A program made the position numbers and the translations under genes. Below, in pieces: positions 2,273 through 38,134 of a stretch of 41,289 bases of DNA (within the stretch, counting starts at the first letter, position 1; each line of letters opens with the position of its first letter). Under the pieces are notes generated by a model, which saw only the letters and a program-made list of their open reading frames with translations, was not told where the DNA came from and made no database searches. Origin of the DNA: Escherichia phage vB_EcoM_ECOO78; the sequence record KY705409. The stretch is one strand, 5' to 3'.

Positions 2273-2329
2273 GTAACCCCCAATAATTATAAATAAAAGT
2301 CAATATGGGGATTGTAGCCGAAAAGATGA

Positions 2330-2660
2330 ACGGTGACCAGAAAAGGGTGACAAGGTGGCAAAGAGTTGGTCACCCGCTTGTCACCCGTCAATCATCTTGA
2401 TTTATAAAGAGAAAGTGCGCGTTTTTGGCGTTCGGGTGACTAAGGTGACAACAATTTCCTATATTAATGTATTTCTACCCTCTGTGCGCACTATTGATAG
2501 GCTATTCCTATCGTCTGTATTTACCCCTATCTAAACTTTATAAATCCTTGTCACCCTTAGTCACCTTTAGTCATTTATATAGTCATATCAGTGGTTTAAG
2601 TGGTGACTAACTAGGTGACCAACTAGGTGACAAGGTGACCAACTTTTGTCACCCAATAAA
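2330..2660. repeat. Iteron-like array: about 12 copies of GGTGAC(A/C)A in both orientations flanking an AT-rich core (candidate origin or regulator-binding array)
   Basis: Read directly: acggtgaccag, agggtgacaagg, ttggtcaccc, ttgtcacccg, gggtgactaaggtgacaa, ttgtcaccctt, tagtcaccttt, ggtgactaactaggtgaccaactaggtgacaaggtgaccaa, ttgtcaccc. Confidence 0.6.
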
Positions 2661-2678
2661 AAACCGCCCGAAGGCGGT
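2656..2678 (-). terminator. Intrinsic terminator (UUCG-loop hairpin plus U-tract on minus strand)
   Basis: Plus-strand taaaaaaccgcccgaaggcggt; minus strand gives accgcc-UUCG-ggcggu followed by UUUUUUA, downstream of the 2685-3017 gene. Confidence 0.6.
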
Positions 2679-2684
2679 TAGTGT

Positions 2685-3017: not shown

Positions 3018-3841
3018 TCGCTGGTGGGATTAGGCGTGTCGAACCACATAACAACGTCGCCTGTATATTGGTGCTTTGTATGGTGGTAACTGGCAATCAG
3101 CCAGGTATCTTTATGATTGATGCGCCCAACTCGCTGGGAACCATCAGAAAGCATCACAGGAACGTCACGGAAGCGATCTGGAAGCCTTTCGCTGCAATTC
3201 ACCCACTGGTCATGATGTTTGTTCGCATTGATGCCAGCCAACGATTCGAACTGCTGCGCGGTGTTGTCTGTTTCATCACTGATGGCAGACGAACGCAGAC
3301 ACTGGACAGCCAGGCGATACGCCTTAAGGCTGATTTCCTGATGCGTGCTCAATGCGCCTTTGCGTTCACCGATTTCCAGGCTTTTGATGCGCGTTTCAAG
3401 GTTTTCCAGCAGCCTATCATCAGTTACCACCGGCGCTGGCTTTTCACGCACATCCGCCAGCAGGATTCTGAAAGCTGCCAGCATGGCACGTTCCGGCACA
3501 TAGTCATCAGCATAGAACGCATCAAGCGCACGCATCATGGCGTTTAGTGATGGGTCAGCATCGCTTACCACCGGCACTGGCTGCACGTCCCCAACCAGGC
3601 GGGTTATTTCGCTTTCCAGGCGCTGGCCAAGCTCTGTTTTAGTGCAGTGCTCGGCCCATTCGTTGTTTTCCAGCAGGGCCACCACGTTGCGCACGTCATC
3701 ATCAACGCCGCCCATTGAATCGGCCAGCATCCGCAAACACGCCAGTTCAAATTCGCCGCGCAGTGACAGTTCACCGTGGCTGTTGACCATTTCCAGTTCC
3801 GCTATGCGCTCGCGCACGTTGTCAATCGTTACTTGTTTCAT
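3014..3841 (-). CDS. Ea22-like protein with C-terminal DUF551 domain
   Basis: C-terminal WVNCSERLPDRFRDVPVMLSDGS...WLIASYHH resembles DUF551; acidic coiled-coil N-terminal region. Confidence 0.55.
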   Translation of the reverse strand: MKQVTIDNVRERIAELEMVNSHGELSLRGEFELACLRMLADSMGGVDDDVRNVVALLENNEWAEHCTKTELGQRLESEITRLVGDVQPVPVVSDADPSLNAMMRALDAFYADDYVPERAMLAAFRILLADVREKPAPVVTDDRLLENLETRIKSLEIGERKGALSTHQEISLKAYRLAVQCLRSSAISDETDNTAQQFESLAGINANKHHDQWVNCSERLPDRFRDVPVMLSDGSQRVGRINHKDTWLIASYHHTKHQYTGDVVMWFDTPNPTSE

Positions 3842-3888: not shown

Positions 3889-4866
3889 TTATGCTACAAC
3901 AGAATTGCTACTTGCCTGGTTATCGTTTGCGGCTGCTGCTTCCATTATGCGCCCCTGCGCTGTCTGGAAATAGGTTTCATCAAGTTCAATTCCTATGAAG
4001 TTACGGCCTTCATTGATGCAGGCGACTCCTGTTGACCCGCTCCCCATAGTGAAATCTAGAACCGTTTCGCCAGGGTTTGAATATGTCCTGATGATGTCAG
4101 CCAGCAGTGCTACCGGCTTCTGTGTTTGGTGAAGGCCGGTATAATCCTTTTTGTACTGAAGAACGTTAGATTTGTATTTTGCACCATCCGCCAGGTTAAA
4201 CCTGCGGGCAAACCTGCGGTCAATTTCTAACATTTCAGCATAAGTCATAAGCCAGTCACACACACTAAGCCCATAGTGCGCAATAATCTGGTTGTATGTC
4301 TTTTCAGTACACAGCCCGAACTGCGTTGATTCAACATAAAAAAAGTGTTCCGCGCGCCTGTGACCTAAATCAGTGTTTATCTGCTTTATATTTCTGCCAA
4401 TGTATTCCATGATTTTTTTGGCATAATCCCTTAGCGGATGCTGTGCCAGCGTGTCATATTTCTTGAAGAACACCACTAAATCTTCAAAGTATGAAACAGG
4501 CGCTTTATTTACCAACAGCGAGTTAGAGAAATGGTCTTTCAGCCACATTAGTCGATAACTGAAAGGCAGATTTCCATGCGCCGCTGTGATTAACTTGCTG
4601 GTGTAAGGTTCCTGGCTGAACAGAATAAGAGCGCCGTTAGTTCGCAAAACGCGGTTGCATTCTTCAAAAATGGCCTGCGGAGAAATAGCGTTATCCCATT
4701 CAGCGTTCGCAATTCGTGAATAGCGTTCTTCACCCTTTCCCATTCCGCCAGCGGTGCCATACGGCGGATCACACAGAACCAAATCAACGCTACCGGCTGG
4801 AATAGACTTCATAACTTCCAGGCAATCACCTAAATGCAATTCGTATTTATTCACAATGCTACCCAT
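3889..4866 (-). CDS. DNA methyltransferase (N6-adenine/N4-cytosine type, beta-class motif order)
   Basis: DPPY catalytic motif near N-terminus (LVLCDPPYG) and SAM-binding FTMGSGSTGVAC near C-terminus; AT-richer than surroundings. Confidence 0.85.
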   Translation of the reverse strand: MGSIVNKYELHLGDCLEVMKSIPAGSVDLVLCDPPYGTAGGMGKGEERYSRIANAEWDNAISPQAIFEECNRVLRTNGALILFSQEPYTSKLITAAHGNLPFSYRLMWLKDHFSNSLLVNKAPVSYFEDLVVFFKKYDTLAQHPLRDYAKKIMEYIGRNIKQINTDLGHRRAEHFFYVESTQFGLCTEKTYNQIIAHYGLSVCDWLMTYAEMLEIDRRFARRFNLADGAKYKSNVLQYKKDYTGLHQTQKPVALLADIIRTYSNPGETVLDFTMGSGSTGVACINEGRNFIGIELDETYFQTAQGRIMEAAAANDNQASSNSVVA

Positions 4867-4918
4867 TACTTTGTTTGGTTTGTTTGGTTTGTCTCGTTTT
4901 CGATAGATGAATTCTATA

Positions 4919-4959
4919 TTTACTTATGTAAATGATATAATCGTTTATACCTATCAATA
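4919..4959 (-). promoter_or_regulatory. Conserved bipartite upstream element TATTGATAGGT-N15-ATTTACATAAGTAAA (copy 1, upstream of methyltransferase)
   Basis: Minus-strand sequence read directly; near-identical element at 10001-10042. Confidence 0.5.
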
Positions 4960-4990
4960 AAAACAAAACCCGCCGAAGCGGGTTATTATT
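4958..4990. terminator. Bidirectional intrinsic terminator (UUCG/CGAA-loop hairpin)
   Basis: aaaaacaaaacccgccgaagcgggttattatt: 5-bp GC stem, 4-nt loop, A/T-rich tracts on both sides; immediately after primase-helicase stop. Confidence 0.6.
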
Positions 4991-7299
4991 CAAAACGGTG
5001 AATTGTCATCTGGTCGCCGGTAATCCGGCTGCAACACCTTCGGCGGCAGGTTGAAGAACCGCCCGTTTTTCGTCTTGCGCGGTTCCTGCCCGGTCAGCTT
5101 GCGCAGCACGTTACTGCAATGCGTGGCCTGTGACTTGTTCGGCTTATCAAATCCGATTTCCTGCAACACCTGGCTGGCGGTATGTTCGCGGTAGGCGCTG
5201 ATGCGTTCGCTGCCCCACTCAAAGCGCGCCAGTATCATTTCCTCTACCGGGTCAATGGATTCGTGTTCCTTGTTGACGCCTTCCAGCATGGCTTCTTCAT
5301 CACGATCCAGCCACCAGCGTTCGCCGTCACGGTACAGTTGCGCCACTTCTGCCCATAACTGTTGCGTGTCGATGTCGTGGGCGTAGTTCACGCCGGTCAC
5401 CGGAATGGTCCACCAGCGAACGTTCCCGGTGTCATCGGCCAGGAAGTGTTTGGGGTTCACTGACGCAAAAAACACCGTTCGGCGCTGGTACTTCGATTCA
5501 AGCCGGTCATAAGGGCGGCGCAGCATGTCCACGTCAGAACTGATGAAGGATTTCAGCCTGGCAATGTCAGCCTTGCGGAACGTTGCATCTAGTTCGCCCA
5601 GCTCAACCATCCAGTGGCCAATCGCGGTGGTCACGCTGTCTTTGTTGCTAGGGTCGATGGTCGCGCCATCTTTCACCAGGTCGCGCATGGTAGGCGGCAG
5701 CAGTGCTTTGAACCAGGACGTTTTCCCCAATGACTGGTCACCCTGTAACACCAGCACGCCTTTGGACCAGAACCCTGTTGGCTTCATGACGGCAGCCACG
5801 GCAGAAATCAGCCAGCGGCGCACCATCATCAGCACCAGGCCACGGTCAAAGCCTTGCGGCGTGGTCAGGGTGTCAACCAGGTCATAAATGCGGCTGACGC
5901 CATCCCAGGGCCGTGACGTGATGAATTCAGCAGCCGGGTTGTAACGATTGGCCACGCCAATCAGCTTGATGTAATCGCCCACGTCACCTTTTGGCATACC
6001 GTTGCGGGCACACAGGCTGGAAACTTCCGCCAGTGAACAGTTGGCCGCAGCGTCAACGCCGTAGTCACGCCCTGGAATGGTCACCACCACATCTTTGCTG
6101 ATTTCGTTATAACGCGCCGTGATGCCGTACTGGTCCAGCAGCCATTCCAGGTTTTCCCAGGTGCTTAATGGCTTTTGCTGGTGGCTCATGTGCGGGTACA
6201 TGAACGGGTTGACCGTGGCATCCAGCGGCAGAAAGTTGTCATTTGCCGGTTCAGGTATCGCGTCGTTAATCTGGCGCTTAACTTCTGCCAGCCCTTGCAT
6301 ATTGTGCAGGTCGTTAAAGTCGGTCGGCTTGTCGCTCAGTGCTGCGAACTTCGGAACCACCAGCAGGCCACCGCATGTGGTTGCGGCCTGGCGCGCGTAG
6401 TGAACGCCATCGTTCTGCTTGCCATCTTCGTGCCACTGGTCGTTATCGGCTGCCACAACAATTGTTGCGCGTCCGAACTGCTGGCGCATCAGCTTGGCCA
6501 CGGTCGGCACGTTACCGGCATCGAACGCCACTACAACGCAGTAGCCTGTTGCCTGGTGGATTGACGCGCCGGTTGAATAGCCTTCACAGATGACAATGAC
6601 CGGGTTTGCGCCAATCGGCTTGCCGCCGATGACGTGGAAGCATCCACGCTTCTGGCCGCCAGGCAAATAATCACGGTCACGCCCTAGCTGTGGGTTTTCG
6701 TTCGGGAAGATGGCCTGCAAACTGGTGATCTGCCCGTCAATGTTACGCACAGGAACCAGCAGCGCGCCATCAATGCTGCGCTTTTCTGTCCAGAACCGCC
6801 CAACACGCAGGCCAAACGCCTGCACCTTCTTGCGCTGCAAATAGGGGTGTTCATCGCCGTCCAGTTCGGTGGCTGATTCCCATATGTTGCGCGCCTGTTC
6901 GGCTGCCTGCGCCATACGTTCGGCACGGCGCTGCTGCTCTGCCTTTTCTTCGGCTTCGCGCTTGCGCTTGCGTGCTTCGATTTCTTCCGCTGACAGCGGG
7001 GTGCGTTCTGCGTCGTTCAGGGAAAAGCCGAACTGCTGCGCCTCACCAATCAGGGTGCCAATGCCAATGCCGCCGTGACGCTTCACTGATTTCCAGGTGT
7101 CGCGTGCGTCTTTGCTGTTGTACTTGTCAGACTGGCGTGACCAGTCATTCCAGACGGTGAAACCGCCGTCGCCTAATTCCGATTTGACCGCCATCGCCAT
7201 GCGCACCCATGTTTCACGGTCGCAACCGGCGTCGATGTAGGAAAGTGCTTCTGCAATTTCCTGTTCGGTCAAATCCTTATAGTTTTGTTGTGCACTCAT
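4990..7299 (-). CDS. Primase-helicase (P4 alpha-like: primase C-terminal-like region, TOPRIM, D5/SF3-type P-loop NTPase)
   Basis: TOPRIM-like VIVICEGYSTGASI...VAADND; Walker A LVLQGDQSLGKTSW; 769 aa. Confidence 0.8.
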   Translation of the reverse strand: MSAQQNYKDLTEQEIAEALSYIDAGCDRETWVRMAMAVKSELGDGGFTVWNDWSRQSDKYNSKDARDTWKSVKRHGGIGIGTLIGEAQQFGFSLNDAERTPLSAEEIEARKRKREAEEKAEQQRRAERMAQAAEQARNIWESATELDGDEHPYLQRKKVQAFGLRVGRFWTEKRSIDGALLVPVRNIDGQITSLQAIFPNENPQLGRDRDYLPGGQKRGCFHVIGGKPIGANPVIVICEGYSTGASIHQATGYCVVVAFDAGNVPTVAKLMRQQFGRATIVVAADNDQWHEDGKQNDGVHYARQAATTCGGLLVVPKFAALSDKPTDFNDLHNMQGLAEVKRQINDAIPEPANDNFLPLDATVNPFMYPHMSHQQKPLSTWENLEWLLDQYGITARYNEISKDVVVTIPGRDYGVDAAANCSLAEVSSLCARNGMPKGDVGDYIKLIGVANRYNPAAEFITSRPWDGVSRIYDLVDTLTTPQGFDRGLVLMMVRRWLISAVAAVMKPTGFWSKGVLVLQGDQSLGKTSWFKALLPPTMRDLVKDGATIDPSNKDSVTTAIGHWMVELGELDATFRKADIARLKSFISSDVDMLRRPYDRLESKYQRRTVFFASVNPKHFLADDTGNVRWWTIPVTGVNYAHDIDTQQLWAEVAQLYRDGERWWLDRDEEAMLEGVNKEHESIDPVEEMILARFEWGSERISAYREHTASQVLQEIGFDKPNKSQATHCSNVLRKLTGQEPRKTKNGRFFNLPPKVLQPDYRRPDDNSPF

Positions 7300-7311
7300 A
7301 GAACCCCGATT

Positions 7312-7542
7312 TTATGGCCTGTTAGCGCGCCATATGGCCAGTGCGCGTTGTTCTAGTTCTTCGCGGGCTGTTGCGCCGCGCCGTTTTTCTATCGCTGCCA
7401 GCAGGGTGCGCCGTGCTTCAATGGTTGGCTGTTTCAGGACGTATTTGGCTTCGCATTCCAGCAACCATTCCCGGCTATCGCTCAACACATCGCGCCCATC
7501 GTGCAGCGTCACTGTGGTGGGCTGCCAGGTACAGGCGTTCAT
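7312..7542 (-). CDS. Hypothetical protein
   Basis: 76 aa ORF in operon context, overlapping neighbour. Confidence 0.4.
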   Translation of the reverse strand: MNACTWQPTTVTLHDGRDVLSDSREWLLECEAKYVLKQPTIEARRTLLAAIEKRRGATAREELEQRALAIWRANRP

Positions 7543-7727
7543 TTTGCTGCCTGCGCGTTCAGTTTCAGTTCAAGCAATTCAAGCTGGTGGGTCGGAATGA
7601 CTTTCCCGCCCTTACACCGCCAGATAAGCACCGTTTGTTCAGTGCGCCCAAGTAAACGGCCAACGTCGCGGCAGGTTAAGCCATGTTCAGCCATAATGTT
7701 GTGAAGTCGTTCGGTCCTTTCGTCCAT
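7539..7727 (-). CDS. Small HTH DNA-binding protein (Cro/XRE-like regulator candidate)
   Basis: Start MDERTERL with GAGG RBS 6-9 nt upstream; HTH-like LTCRDVGRLLGRTEQTVLIWR. Confidence 0.45.
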   Translation of the reverse strand: MDERTERLHNIMAEHGLTCRDVGRLLGRTEQTVLIWRCKGGKVIPTHQLELLELKLNAQAAK

Positions 7728-7807
7728 AGTAATAGCCTCGTAATAACAATGCGCCCATAGTACAGGGCGCATTTCCGAAAGTAAATATCTTTTGAAATAA
7801 TCTTACT

Positions 7808-8032
7808 TCACCGCGAAGCGCGCGGCATCACGAAACGGAAACCGGCCTGGTGCTTCATGGCCATTGCGCCTGCCAGGCGTATCAGTTCAGCGAACGGGTC
7901 TTTGCCGATGGCTGACGTGGTGCGGTACTGTTGCGCCGCGTAGTCAGCCGCGTGCTGTGCTGTGCCAGGTGATGCGCCTTGCTTCACCAGTTCGGCCATG
8001 ACTTGTTTTTTGATGAAGTCTACCGGGTTCAT
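7808..8032 (-). CDS. Hypothetical protein
   Basis: 74 aa ORF, same-strand operon context. Confidence 0.4.
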   Translation of the reverse strand: MNPVDFIKKQVMAELVKQGASPGTAQHAADYAAQQYRTTSAIGKDPFAELIRLAGAMAMKHQAGFRFVMPRASR

Positions 8033-8035
8033 GGT

Positions 8036-8335
8036 TCACGCCCCGCGCTGTTTGAGAAAAACCCAACTCAGCCAGTGTTCATATTGGCCCATCCAGTGCC
8101 GCAGACGAAAGCGCCTGTTGTTTATGGCGGCCATGCCTTCACCGTCATTTTTGTGCTTATGAACACGGTGCAAAACGCGGTCATACTTTTCATCGGATGA
8201 ATCACTATGGCCACGCAGCATTACTGCGGTTTCTTCTTCATTGATGAAGATAGTGAATTTACTGAATCCAAGCTGCTGGCCAGCCTCGACAACAATTTTT
8301 AGCCACTCATGCTTTGGCAGTGGTTTACCTGTCAT
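8036..8335 (-). CDS. Hypothetical protein
   Basis: 99 aa ORF, same-strand operon context. Confidence 0.4.
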   Translation of the reverse strand: MTGKPLPKHEWLKIVVEAGQQLGFSKFTIFINEEETAVMLRGHSDSSDEKYDRVLHRVHKHKNDGEGMAAINNRRFRLRHWMGQYEHWLSWVFLKQRGA

Positions 8336-8568
8336 TTTGCGGCCCTCCGGTTGCGCTGGTGACGTGCTTCACGGCGCATGGCTGCAATGCCGGTGAATCG
8401 TGATTTTCGCGGCCCTGGCTTCGGATAGTCCAGCACCACTTGCATTGACCGCACCTTTGGACGCCAGCCAGCGCGCACCAGCGCCATTTGAAAACCCAGG
8501 CTGATTTCCCTGGCTGATAACTTCCAGGCGTCAACCAACCGCTGCATTGCTACTTTGAGAATATTCAT
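8332..8568 (-). CDS. Hypothetical protein
   Basis: 78 aa ORF; ATGA overlap with upstream small ORF. Confidence 0.4.
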   Translation of the reverse strand: MNILKVAMQRLVDAWKLSAREISLGFQMALVRAGWRPKVRSMQVVLDYPKPGPRKSRFTGIAAMRREARHQRNRRAAK

Positions 8569-8729
8569 TCAACACCCCACGTTCTTTTCAGGTTTTCCAC
8601 TTCAAGCGCCGTCAACATGCCGTAACGGTTCAGATTCCACATTGCCGTTTTGGCCGCCAGGAACGTGATGTGGTTCCTGGTCGCCAGTGCTTCTGAAAAC
8701 AGTCTGCGAATGCTTTCTATTGTCATCAT
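8565..8729 (-). CDS. Small hypothetical protein (54 aa, MMTIESIRRLFSEALATRNH...), below ORF-track size cutoff
   Basis: Read manually; stop overlaps downstream start (ATGA); GGAG upstream; conflicts in part with alternative-frame ORF 8602-8808, which is ATGA-coupled to the VRR-NUC stop. Confidence 0.3.
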   Translation of the reverse strand: MMTIESIRRLFSEALATRNHITFLAAKTAMWNLNRYGMLTALEVENLKRTWGVE

Positions 8730-8804
8730 GGTTTATCCACTCCATCATTGATTGCCCGGTTTGTTCGCTGTAGCGCAGCGCTTCTGCTGCTACGTGTTTT
8801 ATGC

Positions 8805-9215
8805 TCATTTTCCGAACACCAGTTTTTCAGCGTCATCCACTGACCGCACAACACCGGCGCGGCCCCCGTTGTCGTTCACCGCGTTGATGAAGTTTCGCTG
8901 CAACGGTGACACGCGGGCACCGTCTTTGACTTCCAGGCCGGTGAAGATGGCCACTTTCTGCCCCACCATGTCAGGCGTGATTTCCACGCTTACCAGGCCG
9001 AACAGATCGGAAAACCCTGGCGGCAGCCCGGTGTCAAACGGCCTGGCGTTTTTCAGCAGCACGTCACGCGGCCCCATCACAACCGGCATCTGGCGCGGCA
9101 CCTTCACAATGTCATTACTGGTGTACGCCTTGCCCACGTTGGCGCGAAACAGCAGGCAGCGGCCTGCCAGTGCGTTGCGGATTGCATTCTGCAACGCGTG
9201 TTCTTTGTTAGCCAT
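8805..9215 (-). CDS. VRR-NUC domain nuclease (PD-(D/E)xK fold)
   Basis: Pattern LLFRANVGKAY...GLPPGFSDLFGLV...LEVKDGARVSPLQRNFINAVNDNGGRAGVVRSVDDA typical of phage VRR-NUC proteins. Confidence 0.7.
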   Translation of the reverse strand: MANKEHALQNAIRNALAGRCLLFRANVGKAYTSNDIVKVPRQMPVVMGPRDVLLKNARPFDTGLPPGFSDLFGLVSVEITPDMVGQKVAIFTGLEVKDGARVSPLQRNFINAVNDNGGRAGVVRSVDDAEKLVFGK

Positions 9216-9607
9216 TAGAAATTCGCCCCCGGATATTCACCAGAATTGCAGCGCATCCACACACGCAGGCCGATTTGTTCAGGGCGAAGGCTTGCCGATT
9301 GCGGCCAGAACACCTGGCGCGCCACCCAAATAATGCGGTTCTGGTTGTTGTTGGCCAGCAGGGTGACCACGCCCTGTTCGCCTGCGCCTTTGTCGCGCAG
9401 TTCAGCGATTTTGACGGCGATTTTTTGCAGTTCCAGGCAGTAGTAAGTCTGGTCAATGTCCTGCAATTCCGGCTGTGGTGCCGGTTCCTGTTCTTCCGTC
9501 ACCTGGCAGTTGTCCTTTGCAGGGTCCATGCCTGGCAGGCATTCGCGTGCCTGTGCAGTGACGCTGGTGGCCGCCAGGATGAAAGCGGCGATGATAAGTT
9601 TTTTCAT
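9215..9607 (-). CDS. Secreted/periplasmic protein with signal peptide and four Cys
   Basis: N-terminus MKKLIIAAFILAATSVTAQA (SPI-type signal, AQA cleavage); no lipobox. Confidence 0.55.
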   Translation of the reverse strand: MKKLIIAAFILAATSVTAQARECLPGMDPAKDNCQVTEEQEPAPQPELQDIDQTYYCLELQKIAVKIAELRDKGAGEQGVVTLLANNNQNRIIWVARQVFWPQSASLRPEQIGLRVWMRCNSGEYPGANF

Positions 9608-9651
9608 GGTTCCACCTGTGAGAAATGCCCGGCGAACCGGGCAGGGAATGT

Positions 9652-9942
9652 TTACTGCTGTTCGAACCAGTCAGCCAGTTCTCGCAACTGCGCAGCAATG
9701 GTTTTCTTGTCATCGTTAGACGAAAACACCAGGCCGTCACTGCAATGTTCACCGTCATTTTTCATGCTGTCAGGTCCAAATGCGATGATCACGCCGTGTT
9801 CTTGTTCGCTGTCAACGGTCAGCTTGAAATCACTGGTTGTTGCAATGAAAAACTTGCAGCCATCTGCGTCATGAATCGTGCCTTCAAAAGCGACTGGCAG
9901 TTCGTTAAAACCAAAACCATTGCGGATATTTACAGTAGTCAT
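9652..9942 (-). CDS. Hypothetical protein
   Basis: 96 aa ORF preceded by conserved AACGAGGTAACACCC cassette. Confidence 0.5.
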   Translation of the reverse strand: MTTVNIRNGFGFNELPVAFEGTIHDADGCKFFIATTSDFKLTVDSEQEHGVIIAFGPDSMKNDGEHCSDGLVFSSNDDKKTIAAQLRELADWFEQQ

Positions 9943-9980
9943 TTGGGTGTTACCTCGTTTTGTTATTGGGCACCATCTGT
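9943..9980 (-). promoter_or_regulatory. Conserved translation-initiation cassette: hairpin, CCAATAA, AACGAGGTAACACCC, ATG (copy 2)
   Basis: Minus strand ccggcacagatggtgccCCAATAAcaaaACGAGGTAACACCCaaATG; hairpin arms differ from copy 1 but stay complementary. Confidence 0.5.
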
Positions 9981-10000
9981 GCCGGTGAAATAATAATACC

Positions 10001-10042
10001 TTTACTTATGGAAATATCGCCAATGGTTTAAACCTATCAATA
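10001..10042 (-). promoter_or_regulatory. Conserved bipartite upstream element TATTGATAGGT-N16-ATTTCCATAAGTAAA (copy 2)
   Basis: Minus-strand sequence read directly; matches element upstream of methyltransferase. Confidence 0.5.
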
Positions 10043-10051
10043 CTTCACTAT

Positions 10052-11467
10052 TCATCGCTTAAACCTTCTTCCGCCCATCTTCGCTATGGCCCAACCTGAT
10101 GGGTTCGGCAGCCCGCGTTTCATCGCCAGGGCGGTCAGTGCGCCAATATCCTTGCAAGCGTCCTCCTCGCGTTTCATTTTGGCGCGCAGGCTTTCTTTGG
10201 CGCGTTCGTCCATCTCTTTCAGTTCGCCTTCCGCCACTTCAATTTCTTTGGCTTCGGCCTGTAGTTCCTTCTGGCAGTGCGGGCACTTCGGCGGCAGTGG
10301 TCGGCGGATGGCGTTGAAACAGCCTTTGCAGATGACTGGCGGCGGTGGACCACCAGCACTGCTGGACTTGCTGCCGCTATCATCGCCAGACAGTGACCAT
10401 TCCCGTTCATCGTCAGGGAAGCCATGACGCAGCGCATTGCCTGCATGGTCCAGGATGATGGCGGTTTTGCCTTTGGACGGTCGCAACACGCGGCCATCTT
10501 TCTGCAAAACCAGCGACAATGATTGTGTGGGCTGCGCGTCAATCAGGCAGTCAATCGTCACGTCAGTCTGTGCGATAGCTGACAGGTCGAAACCTTCACC
10601 GAACAGCGACACGTTGAAAATCACATCCAGGTTGTCGTTGGCATAGTCCTGAATGATGCGCTTGCGTTCCGCCTTATCGGTGCCGCCATCCAGGTGCGCG
10701 GCGCGGATGCCTGAATCAATGAATGCCTGCGTTAAGTGGCGGCTGTGCGCGATGTTGACCGCAAAGCCAACCGTTTTCATGCCCCTGGCGTATTTCAGCC
10801 AGTGGCTGATGATGTTGCCGGTTAGTTTCGGCTTATCCATCTTCTCGGCGGTTTCTCCTTTTGAGAAATCGCCCATCTGTTTGCGTACACCCTTCATGTC
10901 AGGGATGTCCGGGCAGAACATGCGATAATCAGACAGGTGGCCGTTATCCATCAGCCAGCGCACCGATGGCCCCAACACGATGTCATCAAAGTGGTCATCC
11001 AGGCCGGTGCCGTCCAGGCGCTTTGGCGTGGCTGACAGGCCGATTACATACGCGCCATTCTCGAACAGCCAGGCGTTGACGCGCGCCCATCCAGCCGCGC
11101 CACAGTGGTGCGCTTCGTCCATGATGGCCAGCTTAGGAGCTGGCAGGGTGTGCAGGCGGTTTTTCAGGGTGTCGATGCTGCACACCTGCACCCCGGCGCG
11201 CAGGTTCATGGGATAGCCTGCGGCAATAAAGCCGTGGTCAATGCCGAACTTCCTGAATGTCAAACTGGTCTGTAATACCAGTTCAGCGCGGTGGCAAATA
11301 AACCACACCTGCTGGCCTTTGGCCGATGTTTCCCCAGCCATGTATGACGCCAGCGCAGTTTTGCCCGCGCCTGTTGGTGCCTGCAATAACACGCGGCGGT
11401 TGCGCCGCATAGAAAGGCGCGCCTTATTGATAATGTCGGATTGATAGTCCCTAAGTATTACGCCCAT
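10052..11467 (-). CDS. Superfamily-2 DEAD/DEAH-box DNA helicase
   Basis: Walker A LLQAPTGAGKT, DEAH box MDEAHHC, motif III GLSATP; C-terminal CxxC...CxxC zinc-finger-like segment. Confidence 0.85.
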   Translation of the reverse strand: MGVILRDYQSDIINKARLSMRRNRRVLLQAPTGAGKTALASYMAGETSAKGQQVWFICHRAELVLQTSLTFRKFGIDHGFIAAGYPMNLRAGVQVCSIDTLKNRLHTLPAPKLAIMDEAHHCGAAGWARVNAWLFENGAYVIGLSATPKRLDGTGLDDHFDDIVLGPSVRWLMDNGHLSDYRMFCPDIPDMKGVRKQMGDFSKGETAEKMDKPKLTGNIISHWLKYARGMKTVGFAVNIAHSRHLTQAFIDSGIRAAHLDGGTDKAERKRIIQDYANDNLDVIFNVSLFGEGFDLSAIAQTDVTIDCLIDAQPTQSLSLVLQKDGRVLRPSKGKTAIILDHAGNALRHGFPDDEREWSLSGDDSGSKSSSAGGPPPPVICKGCFNAIRRPLPPKCPHCQKELQAEAKEIEVAEGELKEMDERAKESLRAKMKREEDACKDIGALTALAMKRGLPNPSGWAIAKMGGRRFKR

Positions 11468-18825: not shown

Positions 18826-18919
18826 GTGGGCATTACCTCGTTATTTATCCGGGCAGGTCATCCGCCCGGTTAAGGTAATGATATACGATGATGTAGAATG
18901 ATTGCAACAATGTTTGTTG

Positions 18920-36600: not shown

Positions 36601-38134
36601 TTTGCTGCCCCATTAACAGTGTTTTGTCCATGCCCATGCTTTGCATGACCAGTTTTTCCGCCATTTCTCGGCTGATACCGTGCTGCGTGTACGCCTCAAT
36701 CATGCGTGCCACGTCGCTAGCGGTTTCCTTCCAAACGGTGTCAGGGTCGCTGCCACCTTCACGGATGATGCGGCCAGGCGATTGCAGCATGTTGTTTTTT
36801 GATTTTTCAGCCGCTGCCACGTCAGATGACGGGTCAATCCAGGCCCAACGGCGTGGCTGCCATTCAATATTGCTGTAACGGTCTATGCGTTCCGGTTTCA
36901 GGCTGCGGCCCTTCACCGTGATGCGTCCAGACAGCAGGGCGCGCGGCAGCCAGGCGTCAAAAACAGGCTGGTGCAGGTTTTCGATTAGCCATTCCTGTAA
37001 TTCCTTCCAGCTTTCGCGCTCGTCAAGCGTGCCCTGGCGGATAGAACTGAAATTGACGCCTTCCAGGTCGTTGGCCAGGTTGTTGTAAGCAACACCCATG
37101 CCCGAAGCCATGCCGCGCAGCATTTGTTTGGTGAACACGGCAAATTCGCCGTTGGGGTATTGCGGTGACCAGTCTTTGACGCGTGCGCCCTGTGGCAGCA
37201 CCTGGAATTCACCCGGTTCACTGTCAATAATCAGTTCGTCATCATCTTCAAATTCAGGGCCAGCGGAATTTTCATCCCATTCAATGAACCCCATTTTGTT
37301 GGCACCGGCGCGCGCGTTGACCAGTGCGGCTTCTTCCATGCCGCCCAGGTGGCGCATACGAAACAGGCTGGTGGCCATCCAGGGCAGGCCGCGTTTCTGG
37401 CCCACCATGTCATCAAAAAAGCCGTGCAGGATTTCTTCCGCAGGCACGCGCACGAAGTCACGCCCGGACCAGCGGTAGTTTTCATCCGATTCATCAACGG
37501 TGCTGAAATAGTACGCGATAGGCCGCCCGTAGCGGTTAAATTCGATGCCCTGGCGGATGAAATTTCCGTTTGGCATCCGATCTTCAACCATGTCCACCGG
37601 GCAGCGTTGCGGGTCCAGCAGTTGCAGCGAGAAGCCCCACGGCCCTGCGTCAGCCCCGAACACCAGGCGCACGAAGAATTCACCGTCTTTGGCCACGCTG
37701 TTGACGCAGGCGGCCTGGATGGCGCGCCATGACAACTTCCCGGTCACGTCACAGTTAGTCTTTTTGCCCCATGCGTCAAACGCCAGTTCAATGGCTTCAT
37801 TCGCCAGGGTGTCCAGTTTTCCGGTGTTATCCTGGCTTTTTGCCTGCAACAGAACGCCTTTTGGCCCCACAATGTTTGTGCGGCACAGACGCAGGAACTT
37901 TTTGGCATAATCATTGTTGGCGGCCTGTTCGCGGGAACGGGCCACCAGGATGCGTTGATTTTTGGTAATGACTTCATCAGCCGTCAGCGGCTGCGTGCCC
38001 CACGCGGTGCCAAAACGGTCAACGCTGGCCCCGGTAAACATACGGGACGCCAGGCGGTTAAGCGGTAAACGCCGCGTGCGCGGCTGTTGTGCCTGTTCGG
38101 CAGGCTTATTTCTGGTAAATGGCCACAGTTTCAT
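36578..38134 (-). CDS. Portal protein (lambda gpB family)
   Basis: 518 aa; lies between terminase and protease-capsid genes; family call from memory of lambda-type portals. Confidence 0.8.
   Translation of the reverse strand: MKLWPFTRNKPAEQAQQPRTRRLPLNRLASRMFTGASVDRFGTAWGTQPLTADEVITKNQRILVARSREQAANNDYAKKFLRLCRTNIVGPKGVLLQAKSQDNTGKLDTLANEAIELAFDAWGKKTNCDVTGKLSWRAIQAACVNSVAKDGEFFVRLVFGADAGPWGFSLQLLDPQRCPVDMVEDRMPNGNFIRQGIEFNRYGRPIAYYFSTVDESDENYRWSGRDFVRVPAEEILHGFFDDMVGQKRGLPWMATSLFRMRHLGGMEEAALVNARAGANKMGFIEWDENSAGPEFEDDDELIIDSEPGEFQVLPQGARVKDWSPQYPNGEFAVFTKQMLRGMASGMGVAYNNLANDLEGVNFSSIRQGTLDERESWKELQEWLIENLHQPVFDAWLPRALLSGRITVKGRSLKPERIDRYSNIEWQPRRWAWIDPSSDVAAAEKSKNNMLQSPGRIIREGGSDPDTVWKETASDVARMIEAYTQHGISREMAEKLVMQSMGMDKTLLMGQQNAEKPAE

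What the first reader, a model, noticed from the sequence alone, without database searches (positions are those of the whole stretch)
4919..10042. Conserved bipartite upstream element shared by two early/moron genes
On the minus strand, TATTGATAGGT-N15/16-ATTT(A/C)CATAAGTAAA occurs upstream of the methyltransferase gene (4919-4959) and upstream of the 9652-9942 gene (10001-10042), each directly after a terminator or gene end. Spacing from the TTGATA hexamer to the TAAGTA block does not fit a standard sigma70 -35/-10 pair, so it may be a specialised promoter or a regulator-binding module that came with the morons.
Basis: seen in the sequence. Interest (0 to 1): 0.6.

Follow-up and report, generated by a model that had tools for sequence, protein, structure and literature searches.

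The report
Repressor-controlled internal phage promoters, cargo slots
The two repeated sequences are conserved internal promoters of a small E. coli phage. They probably carry the binding site of a small phage repressor and mark the fixed points behind which related phages swap accessory genes, which makes this a tidy but fairly ordinary piece of phage gene control.

Summary
The window is a Jilinvirus genome about 98% identical to phage vB_EcoM-ep3. The bipartite element occurs exactly twice, at 4919-4959 and 10001-10042 on the minus strand.

I found it at the same two positions (after the helicase stop, after the primase terminator) in all 16 related genomes or contigs examined: 30 instances.

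It is a TAnnnT hexamer 2-4 bp downstream of the second block (A2 and T6 in 30/30 instances, T1 in 29/30). A weak TTR -35 lies 18-19 bp upstream of it.

The second block is a 14-bp palindrome, TTTAC-N4-GTAAA, inside the spacer. A third copy sits on the -35 of the promoter of a 62-aa Cro/XRE-like HTH gene (7539-7727). The half-site changes together at all these promoters in Aryavirus, Burkholderia and Pseudomonas relatives, as does the HTH recognition helix. I infer it is that protein's operator, acting in repression and autoregulation.

The first block (GATAGG...AAAC) keeps a fixed 38-40 bp distance to the -10 across lineages. What binds it is unknown.

Homology between phages breaks just downstream of the element. 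The element therefore belongs to the backbone, and the cargo behind it is what gets swapped. No transcription data exist for this phage group.

The parts
4967..4984 (-). Intrinsic terminator after the primase gene (AACCCGCTTCGGCGGGTT followed by a T-run), immediately upstream of copy 1
   Evidence: (terminator scan). The same hairpin precedes copy 1 in all relatives.
4939..4959 (-). Box A of copy 1: TATTGATAGGTATAAACGATT. The GATAGG core is about -51 to -46 from the predicted start.
   Evidence: 37.6 bits. 12 of the first 21 columns were invariant in the 19 instances tabulated.
4935..4940 (-). Weak -35-like hexamer TTATAT, 18 bp upstream of the -10
   Evidence: a TTR... hexamer at 18-19 bp in 18 of 19 tabulated instances (Arya copy 2 has CTGGAA). 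Inference.
4919..4933 (-). Box B of copy 1: ATTTACATAAGTAAA, a 14-bp palindrome TTTAC-N4-GTAAA inside the promoter spacer. Inferred operator of the 62-aa HTH protein.
   Evidence: 26.1 bits. Lineage covariation.
4911..4916 (-). -10 hexamer TAGAAT. Predicted transcription start near 4904.
   Evidence: TAnnnT 2-4 bp after box B (A2 and T6 in 30/30, T1 in 29/30).
3889..4866 (-). Cargo behind copy 1: N6/N4 DNA methyltransferase gene, shared only with ep3
   Evidence: PF01555, E 6.6e-30; no homology in other relatives between 3842 and about 4905.
10022..10042 (-). Box A of copy 2: TATTGATAGGTTTAAACCATT, starting 10 nt after the helicase stop codon
   Evidence: 35.3 bits
10018..10023 (-). Weak -35-like hexamer TTGGCG, 19 bp upstream of the -10
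10001..10015 (-). Box B of copy 2: ATTTCCATAAGTAAA (left half-site imperfect)
   Evidence: 22.5 bits
9993..9998 (-). -10 hexamer TATTAT. Predicted start near 9986.
9969..9983 (-). 5'-leader hairpin GGCAC-AGATG-GTGCC, followed by the ribosome-binding region. Part of the cassette leader shared with several relatives.
9652..9942 (-). Cargo behind copy 2: 96-aa protein of unknown function (phrog_28115). Among the relatives compared it is shared only with Enterobacter phage Arya.
7772..7786 (-). Third box B (ATTTACTTTCGGAAA), upstream of the HTH gene. Its left half, TTTACT (7785-7780), is the -35 of that gene's promoter. There is no box A here.
   Evidence: (20.9 bits on the + strand read, 13.6 on the - strand). 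Conserved with lineage-specific half-sites in all lineages examined.
7757..7762 (-). -10 hexamer TACTAT of the HTH gene promoter (TTTACT-17 bp-TACTAT). Predicted start near 7750.
7749..7772 (-). Inverted repeat ATGCGCCC...GGGCGCAT that encloses the -10 hexamer. The arms differ in sequence but stay complementary in other lineages. Role unknown (hairpin or terminator for read-through RNA, or a second operator).
   Evidence: (RNA fold -18.2 kcal/mol, z = -4.1)
7539..7727 (-). Gene for the 62-aa Cro/XRE-like HTH protein (phrog_14341 'transcriptional repressor'), the inferred box-B binder. The 77-aa start annotated in ep3 (7772) lies inside the operator and is probably wrong.
2492..2545 (+). Degenerate third copy in the opposite orientation: TATTGATAGGC-N16-ATTTACC. 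It has no right half-site and no properly spaced -10. It contains the palindrome GATAGG-N5-CCTATC.
   Evidence: It lies in a roughly 60-bp insertion present only in a subset of relatives.

Best explanation
The two copies are internal sigma-70-type promoters of the phage's rightward early (replication) operon. One lies just after the helicase gene. The other lies just after the primase terminator.

Each promoter has four parts: (i) a conserved -10 hexamer; (ii) a weak -35 at a long 18-19 bp spacing; (iii) a 14-bp palindromic operator (box B, TTTAC-N4-GTAAA) filling the spacer; and (iv) an upstream box A (GATAGG...AAAC) held 38-40 bp from the -10.

Box B is most likely bound by a dimer of the 62-aa Cro/XRE-like HTH protein encoded between the two copies. 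The same operator covers the -35 of that gene's own promoter. As the protein accumulates it would shut down its own promoter and both internal promoters. That is negative feedback on the replication genes and on the accessory genes downstream.

Box A probably recruits or positions RNA polymerase at these -35-poor promoters, through an unidentified conserved factor or the polymerase alpha subunit.

Because the 40-60 bp element is identical or nearly so in different phages and at two places in one genome, it also acts as a homologous-recombination joint. Behind it, cargo cassettes (methyltransferase, the 96-aa gene and many others) are exchanged.

What is shown by sequence: the anatomy, the conservation, the covariation and the mosaic junctions. 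What is inferred: transcription starts, protein binding, and whether the regulation is repression or activation.
For: Promoter core:
- A -10 hexamer lies 2-4 bp after box B, with A2 and T6 in 30/30 instances and T1 in 29/30, although the DNA downstream belongs to at least four unrelated leader types.
- The TTGATA-to-(-10) distance is always 35-36 bp, even where the box A-to-B and box B-to-(-10) distances vary in compensating ways (for, after re-registering five instances by eye).
- The orientation always matches the downstream genes. The position is always intergenic, after a terminator or a stop codon.

Operator:
- Box B is a palindrome. A perfect version, TTTACTTAAGTAAA, occurs in L154 and L169.
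- A PWM scan finds only one further box B in the window, directly upstream of the HTH gene.
- The half-site co-varies by lineage at all these promoters, including the HTH gene's own. Jilinvirus has TTTAC/GTAAA with helix RTEQTVLIWRC (window, 7 phages, 18 database homologues). Arya has TTTAA/TTAAA with RTVSTVRVWRC. Mica and L162 have TTCAC/GTGAA with RT(A/P)QTVRVWCC.
- The recognition helices of the two other HTH proteins (HTH_17, late activator) do not change in Arya.
- The AF2 model (pLDDT 89.5) has a Cro/XRE fold. The nearest structures include HipB, Aca1 bound to a 14-bp palindrome, R-M controller proteins and 434 Cro.

Box A:
- A GATAG-N2-3-AAA motif lies 38-39 bp from the -10 in the Burkholderia and Pseudomonas relatives too.

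Recombination joint:
- Homology to all relatives except ep3 stops at 4906-4919 and resumes at 3841. At copy 2 it stops at 9940-9989 and resumes at 9643-9652.
- The same leader and cargo cassette is found at the helicase site in one phage and the primase site in another: Bas97 copy 2 matches L155 copy 1, and the 'CACATAGGGCGG' leader is at either site.
Against: - No transcription start, binding or reporter data exist for any member of this phage group.
- The -35 is poor and the spacer long, so basal activity could be very low.
- The HTH-operator link rests on about four specificity classes. It is imperfect: Persinger has a different helix (RKPQTVRIW) but TTTAC half-sites.
- In L158 the position of box B relative to the -10 is uncertain.
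- The sign of regulation is inferred only from operator position.
- Nothing identifies what binds box A.
Confidence: 0.7

Rival explanations
1. Same promoters, but the HTH protein (or another factor at box B) activates rather than represses. A dimer bound to the palindrome in an over-long 18-19 bp spacer would realign weak -35 and -10 elements, as MerR-type regulators do. On this reading these are delayed-early or middle promoters.
For: The spacers are 18-19 bp and the dyad is centred within them. The -35 is weak. In Mica the palindrome overlaps the -35 region, where class II activators also sit.
Against: The 62-aa protein has a Cro/XRE fold, not a MerR fold. At its own promoter the operator covers a good -35 (TTTACT-17-TACTAT), the classical autorepression layout. 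The distance from box B to the -10 varies from 2 to about 7 bp, and possibly 10-14 bp, between lineages. Repressors tolerate that; face-of-helix-dependent activators do not.
Confidence: 0.15
2. Box A, or the whole element, is a loading site for a processive antiterminator (Q/AlpA-like). Polymerases starting there would then read through the primase terminator (4967-4984) and the terminator at 2662-2679 to reach the late activator gene.
For: Each promoter is followed, several genes downstream, by an intrinsic terminator. Q-type and AlpA binding elements lie in or next to the core promoter; the AlpA element lies between -35 and -10 (PMC9371919). Box A keeps a fixed distance to the -10.
Against: No Q/AlpA-like protein was identified. 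The 144-aa late activator shows no sequence similarity to AlpA or Q chains in the PDB. No conserved -10-like pause element is seen in the varied initial transcribed regions. Box A lies upstream of the -35, unlike the AlpA element and, to my knowledge, the lambda Q element.
Confidence: 0.07
3. The element is not a promoter. It is a DNA recombination site, or an RNA signal (processing site or hairpin) in the read-through operon transcript.
For: It coincides with mosaic junctions. Copy 2 has no terminator upstream, so it is transcribed as part of the helicase mRNA.
Against: RNA folding of either copy is no better than shuffled sequence (z = -1.56 and +0.60). There is no Rfam match. A pure recombination or RNA signal would not explain the invariant TAnnnT hexamer at a fixed distance, the strict orientation, or the placement before genes. 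No site-specific recombinase is associated with it.
Confidence: 0.05

Closest known systems
PeSLs (promoter-early stem-loops) of T4-type phages (PMC2839356, PMC4122927)
   Same: A short conserved composite of a terminator hairpin plus a sigma-70-like promoter, repeated within a genome. It lies in front of variable non-essential ORFs and serves as the homologous-recombination joint for cassette shuffling. Copy 1 here is exactly terminator plus promoter.
   Different: PeSLs are described as abundant in the hyperplastic regions of T4-type genomes and as strong sigma-70-like promoters; no dedicated operator is described in the abstracts read. Here there are only two copies, in a 41-kb Jilinvirus. 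The -35 is weak, a phage-specific palindromic operator and an upstream box are present, and copy 2 has no stem-loop.
Cro-type and other small XRE-family repressors with 14-18 bp palindromic operators over early promoters (434 Cro; Aca1 on anti-CRISPR promoters; R-M controller C proteins)
   Same: A dimer-sized (62-aa) lambda-repressor-like fold. A 14-bp palindrome lies inside the core promoter. There is an operator on the regulator's own promoter (autoregulation). It controls promoters that drive accessory genes, one of them a DNA methyltransferase.
   Different: There is no detectable sequence similarity to any of them. The gene is not at the immunity region. In Jilinvirus its operator is distinct from the cI operators (ACGGTTA-type repeats at the divergent early region). 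No restriction enzyme or known anti-CRISPR gene is present.
MerR-type promoters (dyad operator centred in a 19-20 bp spacer)
   Same: An over-long spacer (18-19 bp) with a centred dyad.
   Different: The candidate regulator is not a MerR-family protein. The 'MerR-like' HTH_17 protein of the phage does not co-vary with box B.
UP elements and class I activator sites upstream of -35
   Same: Box A lies at about -55 to -36, has an A-rich 3' part at about -44 to -39, and keeps a fixed distance to the -10.
   Different: Box A has invariant G/C positions (GATAGG, C17). It is conserved from E. coli to Burkholderia phages, which suggests a specific protein rather than a generic A/T tract. That protein was not identified.

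Membership tests
Sigma-70-dependent promoter | -10 hexamer with A at position 2 and T at positions 1 and 6 (TAnnnT), about 7 nt upstream of the start | tested here: met
   A2 and T6 in 30/30 instances; T1 in 29/30, the exception being CATTAT in L163. Window hexamers: TAGAAT 4916-4911, TATTAT 9998-9993.
Sigma-70-dependent promoter | -35 hexamer resembling TTGACA, 16-18 bp upstream of the -10 | tested here: inconclusive
   Only TTR-type hexamers (TTATAT, TTGGCG, TTAGAA, TTGGAA, TTGGCA) at 18-19 bp. The consensus scan finds nothing conserved.
Sigma-70-dependent promoter | Mapped transcription start or promoter activity | not testable with these tools
   No transcriptome or reporter data were found for this phage group.
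PeSL-like recombination cassette | Terminator stem-loop joined to an early promoter | tested here: inconclusive
   Copy 1: yes (terminator 4984-4967 directly upstream). Copy 2: no stem-loop; it follows the helicase stop codon.
PeSL-like recombination cassette | Indel and replacement junctions between related genomes coincide with the motif | tested here: met
   Homology ends at 4906-4919 and at 9940-9989. The same cassettes are found at either site in different phages.
PeSL-like recombination cassette | Many copies in the hyperplastic regions of T4-type genomes | tested here: not met
   Two full copies per genome, in Jilinvirus and Aryavirus.
Cro/XRE-type repressor operator | Palindromic site of about 14-18 bp overlapping the core promoter | tested here: met
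   TTTAC-N4-GTAAA between -35 and -10, and over the -35 of the HTH gene's own promoter.
Cro/XRE-type repressor operator | A cognate small HTH protein whose specificity tracks the operator | tested here: inconclusive
   Covariation across Jilinvirus, Arya and Mica/L162 supports it. Persinger and L158 fit only partly. The fold is XRE/Cro-like. Binding itself was not tested.
MerR-type promoter | Regulator of the MerR family | tested here: not met
   The 62-aa protein hits only HTH_23 weakly and has a Cro/XRE fold. The HTH_17 'MerR-like' protein does not co-vary with box B.
Q/AlpA-type antiterminator loading site | A Q/AlpA-like protein and a -10-like pause element in the initial transcribed region | tested here: not met
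   No PDB sequence match of the late activator to AlpA or Q. No conserved pause element in the varied leaders.

The most novel reading that the evidence does not exclude
The two elements are dedicated 'cargo slots'. They would be fixed promoters, repressed in an Aca-like manner, whose conserved 40-60 bp sequence lets Jilinvirus-type phages exchange accessory genes, between phages and between the two slots. The cargo seen includes a methyltransferase, nucleotide-modification genes and nucleotide-hydrolase genes, and may be anti-defence in function. Expression would be an early burst that the 62-aa HTH protein then shuts off. Box A would be the site of a so far unknown phage factor, conserved from E. 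coli to Burkholderia phages, that brings RNA polymerase to promoters lacking a good -35.
Probability: 0.3. Interest if true: 0.6.

Novelty: new member of a known kind. Interest (0 to 1): 0.4.

Why it matters
Jilinvirus and its relatives are barely studied. The BASEL paper calls their lifestyle enigmatic (PMC11990801), and I found no description of their promoters or regulators.

This analysis gives three things:
- A concrete, testable regulatory map: three promoters with predicted starts, one operator and one candidate repressor.
- An explanation of why accessory genes vary at exactly two places in these genomes.
- A pointer to an unidentified factor that acts through box A.

For phage engineering, the two slots are natural insertion points with built-in regulated expression. 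In concept it remains an ordinary promoter-operator system.

Tried and rejected
Only L070 was a real relative.
- The genome-contig scan gave only chance matches in unrelated bacteria.
- The metagenome scan gave two further contigs.
- E. coli chromosomes hold a VapE-type gene similar to part of the primase, but the match does not reach the element.
- BLAST of the element against phages outside the group matched only the terminator plus TTATTGATA part.
- Reading TTGATA as a -35 was rejected. The hexamer 16-18 bp downstream is not conserved and lacks TAnnnT; the single scan hit, TTGATA-16-GATATT, exists only in window copy 2.
- Reading TTTACC as a -35 was rejected because it is only 10 bp from the -10.
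- IHF, FNR/CRP, Fis and DnaA consensus sites were compared with box A by eye, from memory. None fits. G5 of TTGAT is A in 4 of the 19 instances tabulated, which argues against FNR.
- Rfam gave nothing at gathering thresholds in the window. It gave nothing meaningful for the long conserved leader of relatives, whose fold is no better than shuffles.
- Box A is not a disguised box B. It does not change in Arya or Mica when box B does.
- The cI-like repressor was rejected as the box B binder. ep3 and the window lack the cI-like gene, and the early region of phages that have it carries different repeats.
- The late activator was checked against AlpA and Q chains by sequence: no match.
- Correction of my own error: the Mica site at L161 1467, which I first took for the main early promoter, is in fact the post-helicase position.

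Full report
**What the window is.**
The 41,289-bp window is an almost complete Jilinvirus genome (subfamily Iiscvirinae). It is about 98% identical to Escherichia phage vB_EcoM-ep3 over the region compared.

The finding lies in the rightward early operon, read on the minus strand. The gene order is:
- helicase (10052-11467)
- a 96-aa gene (9652-9942)
- small genes
- a small HTH gene (7539-7727)
- a DUF7696 gene
- primase (4990-7299)
- terminator
- N6/N4 DNA methyltransferase (3889-4866)
- two conserved genes
- terminator
- a 412-bp non-coding region
- late activator (1838-2272)
- lysis genes

**Observation.**
- Copy 1: TATTGATAGGT (4959-4949), N15, ATTTACATAAGTAAA (4933-4919). It starts 7 nt after the primase terminator stem (4984-4967).
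- Copy 2: the same 11-mer (10042-10032), N16, ATTTCCATAAGTAAA (10015-10001). It starts 10 nt after the helicase stop codon.

The 11-mer occurs nowhere else in the window. A weight matrix for the 21-nt first block scores 37.6 and 35.3 bits at the two sites and below 8 bits everywhere else. Shuffled sequence reached at most 12.1 bits. Chance is excluded.

**Conservation.**
I examined seven named relatives: ep3, HeidiAbel/Bas97, ECO1230-10, Arya, Alux-21, PT1 and KA2-1. I also examined two viral contigs, two metagenome contigs and five further genomes reached through homologues of the HTH protein.

The element is present at both syntenic positions wherever the sequence covers them (PT1's post-helicase copy escaped the pattern and was not looked at further). 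That gives 30 full instances, 27 of them distinct. Outside this group, BLAST and pattern scans found only chance matches or the terminator part.

**Anatomy of the promoter.**

- The -10 hexamer. Two to four bp downstream of the second block there is always a hexamer of the form TAnnnT: TAGAAT, TATTAT, TAGTAT, TAATAT or TATAGT. A2 and T6 are present in 30/30 instances and T1 in 29/30. This holds although the DNA further downstream belongs to at least four unrelated leader types. These are the three positions that define a sigma-70 -10 element (established knowledge).
- The -35. A weak hexamer (TTATAT, TTGGCG, TTAGAA, TTGGAA, TTGGCA) lies 18-19 bp upstream of the -10.
- The fixed distance. The distance from TTGATA to the -10 is 35-36 bp in every instance. 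This holds even where the box A-to-B distance is one shorter and the box B-to-(-10) gap is correspondingly longer. In five instances the script picked the alternative register TATAGT/TATATT, and the register two bases on gives 35 (my reading). The -10 is thus tied to the upstream part, as expected if RNA polymerase contacts both.
- Predicted starts. These are near 4904 and 9986 (inference).
- Rejected pairings. TTGATA with TAAGTA is indeed not a promoter pair. TTTACC lies only 10 bp from the -10 and cannot serve as its -35.

**Box B is an operator.**
The second block is a 14-bp palindrome, TTTAC-N4-GTAAA. It is a perfect palindrome (TTTACTTAAGTAAA) in L154 and L169.

A matrix scan of the window finds one further site, ATTTACTTTCGGAAA, at 7786-7772. 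It lies directly upstream of the small HTH gene. There its left half, TTTACT, forms a good promoter with TACTAT (7762-7757) at 17 bp.

The same arrangement exists upstream of the orthologous gene in every lineage examined, each with its own half-site:

| Lineage | Half-sites | Recognition helix |
|---|---|---|
| Jilinvirus | TTTAC / G(T/G)AAA | RTEQTVLIWRC |
| Arya | TTTAA / TTAAA | RTVSTVRVWRC |
| Burkholderia phage Mica and contig L162 | TTCAC / (G/A)TGAA | RT(A/P)QTVRVWCC |
| Pseudomonas phage Persinger | TTTAC / TGAAA | RKPQTVRIWRC |

The internal promoters of each lineage carry the same lineage-specific half-sites:
- Both copies of Arya have TTTAAG..TTAAA.
- Mica has TTCA(C/T)-N4-GTGAA after the helicase, in mid-operon and after the primase.
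- Persinger has TTTAC-GTGC-GTAAA after the primase terminator.

The Jilinvirus helix is identical in the window, in seven phages and in all 18 database homologues. The five homologue genomes I fetched all have TTTAC-type box B.

The recognition helices of the other two HTH proteins (the HTH_17 'MerR-like' protein and the late activator) are unchanged in Arya. The cI-type operators of relatives that have a cI gene are different repeats.

The AlphaFold model of the 62-aa protein (pLDDT 89.5) is a four-helix Cro/XRE fold. Its nearest solved structures include HipB, Aca1 bound to a 14-bp palindrome, R-M controller proteins, P2 C and 434 Cro. TM-scores are 0.6-0.75, but the E-values are weak because the protein is so small.

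I therefore infer that box B is the operator of this protein. Because it fills the spacer of the two internal promoters and covers the -35 of its own promoter, I infer that it represses. The covariation rests on few independent lineages and Persinger fits imperfectly, so this remains an inference.

**Box A.**
The first block extends to TATTGATAGGTATAAACGATT. It has invariant G/C positions.

It does not change when box B changes. A related motif, GATAG-N2-3-AAA(A/C)(T)C, sits 38-39 bp from the -10 in Mica, L162 and Persinger, against 39-40 bp in Jilinvirus. It is absent from the HTH gene's own promoter, which has a good -35.

A fixed distance to the -10 at promoters with poor -35 elements suggests a polymerase-recruiting site. 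That could be a site for a conserved phage protein, or an UP-like element for the alpha subunit, since the A-rich part lies at about -44 to -39.

The HTH_17 protein is 60% identical between the E. coli and Pseudomonas phages, and its HTH region is almost invariant. That makes it a candidate, but nothing tests this.

A degenerate third copy on the opposite strand (2492-2545) contains GATAGG-N5-CCTATC. It occurs only in a subset of genomes, within a roughly 60-bp insertion. It may be a recombination remnant, or a palindromic site for the same unknown factor.

**Relation to the cargo genes.**
The element did not arrive with the morons.

Homology between the window and all relatives except ep3 stops at 4906-4919 and resumes at 3841. 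The methyltransferase gene is therefore a replaceable cassette behind a fixed promoter.

At copy 2, homology stops at 9940-9989 and resumes at 9643-9652. Among the relatives compared, the 96-aa gene is shared only with Arya.

Other phages carry quite different genes in the same two slots. Examples are Nmad5-domain proteins, dATP/dGTP pyrophosphohydrolase-domain proteins, Ead/Ea22-like proteins, DUF551 and many small ORFs.

The same leader-plus-gene cassette can sit at the helicase slot in one phage and at the primase slot in another. The conserved element is therefore the recombination joint.

This is the behaviour described for the promoter-early stem-loops (PeSLs) of T4-type phages (PMC2839356, PMC4122927). 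Here it occurs with two copies, a weak -35 and a dedicated operator.

**Rivals.**
- An activator role for the box B protein (a MerR-like spacer mechanism) is not excluded. It is disfavoured by the fold, by the autoregulatory layout, and by the variable position of the operator between lineages.
- An antiterminator-loading role for box A is conceivable because terminators follow both transcription units. I found no Q/AlpA-like protein and no conserved pause element.
- An RNA-level role is not supported.
- No experimental data on transcription of these phages were found.

**Verdict.**
The finding is a real, strongly conserved regulatory element. It is best explained as a pair of repressor-controlled internal promoters that also serve as cassette-exchange points.

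It is a new member of known kinds (phage promoter-operator, PeSL-like joint). The interest is moderate. Two things lift it above routine: the unidentified box A factor, and the possible role of the two sites as slots for anti-defence cargo.

Noticed in passing
window 2273-2684, mainly 2332-2648: The 412-bp non-coding region upstream of the late activator gene holds 13 copies of GTCACC/GGTGAC in 317 bp, against about 48 in the other 41 kb. In ECO1230-10 the same region carries GGGAC/GTCCC repeats instead, so the repeat co-varies between phages. These are likely iterons or sites of a regulator of the conserved GCTACAAT promoter. Mica has GTCACC repeats at the equivalent place.
   Followed up: partly
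window 7749-7772 (minus strand): The inverted repeat ATGCGCCC...GGGCGCAT encloses the -10 hexamer of the HTH gene promoter. The RNA fold is -18.2 kcal/mol (z = -4.1), followed by TTGTTATT. The arms differ but stay complementary in Arya (GGTCCT/AGGACC), L162 (GGCCGA/TCGGCC), Mica (GCGCGG/CCGCGC) and Persinger. It could be a terminator or attenuator for read-through transcripts, or a second palindromic operator. This is undecided.
   Followed up: partly
window 7727 versus 7772 (minus strand): The 77-aa start annotated for the HTH gene in ep3, Bas97 and Alux-21 lies inside the operator. The 62-aa start at 7727 has a GAGG ribosome-binding site and matches the length in ECO1230-10, KA2-1, PT1, Arya and 18 database homologues.
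   Followed up: yes
window 2492-2545 (+ strand): A degenerate, inverted third copy of the element (TATTGATAGGC-N16-ATTTACC) containing the palindrome GATAGG-N5-CCTATC. It lies within a roughly 60-bp insertion present in the window, Bas97, Alux-21, PT1 and L165, and absent from ep3, ECO1230-10, Arya and KA2-1.
   Followed up: partly
L163 8800-8997; also Bas97 (L002 about 36770-36820), Arya, PT1, KA2-1, L127, L168. Not in the window.: In many relatives the same promoter is followed by a conserved leader starting CACATAGGGCGGCGGCAGGATGCAGCCGGAGAGG, about 200 nt before the first called gene in L163. There is no Rfam match and its fold is no better than shuffled sequence. It may hold tiny ORFs.
   Followed up: partly
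window 4867-4904 (minus strand): The predicted 5' leader of the methyltransferase mRNA is a CA-rich tract (CAAAC repeats) with no recognisable Shine-Dalgarno sequence before the ATG at 4866.
   Followed up: no
window 9943-9990 and 18826-18919 (minus strand): A similar leader module (a short GC hairpin followed by AATAA(C)AAAACGAGGTAA..CCCA and the start codon) precedes both the 96-aa cargo gene and a gene in the late region. It recurs in relatives in front of different genes.
   Followed up: no
hits H32-H61 (phAPEC8-like phages): The terminator plus the first bases of box A (AACCCGCTTCGGCGGGTTTTGTTTTTATTGATA) matches annotated terminators in about 150-kb phAPEC8-type phages at 86-89% identity over 44 nt. 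It could be a shared terminator/-35 module or a convergent sequence.
   Followed up: no
cargo slots in L163, L165, L168, L169: The cargo behind the two promoters in relatives includes PF04447 dATP/dGTP pyrophosphohydrolase-domain proteins, Nmad5 (nucleotide-modification associated) proteins and, within the operon just downstream of the HTH gene in L168, a C5 DNA methylase. This hints that the variable genes of this operon collect DNA-modification or anti-restriction functions.
   Followed up: no
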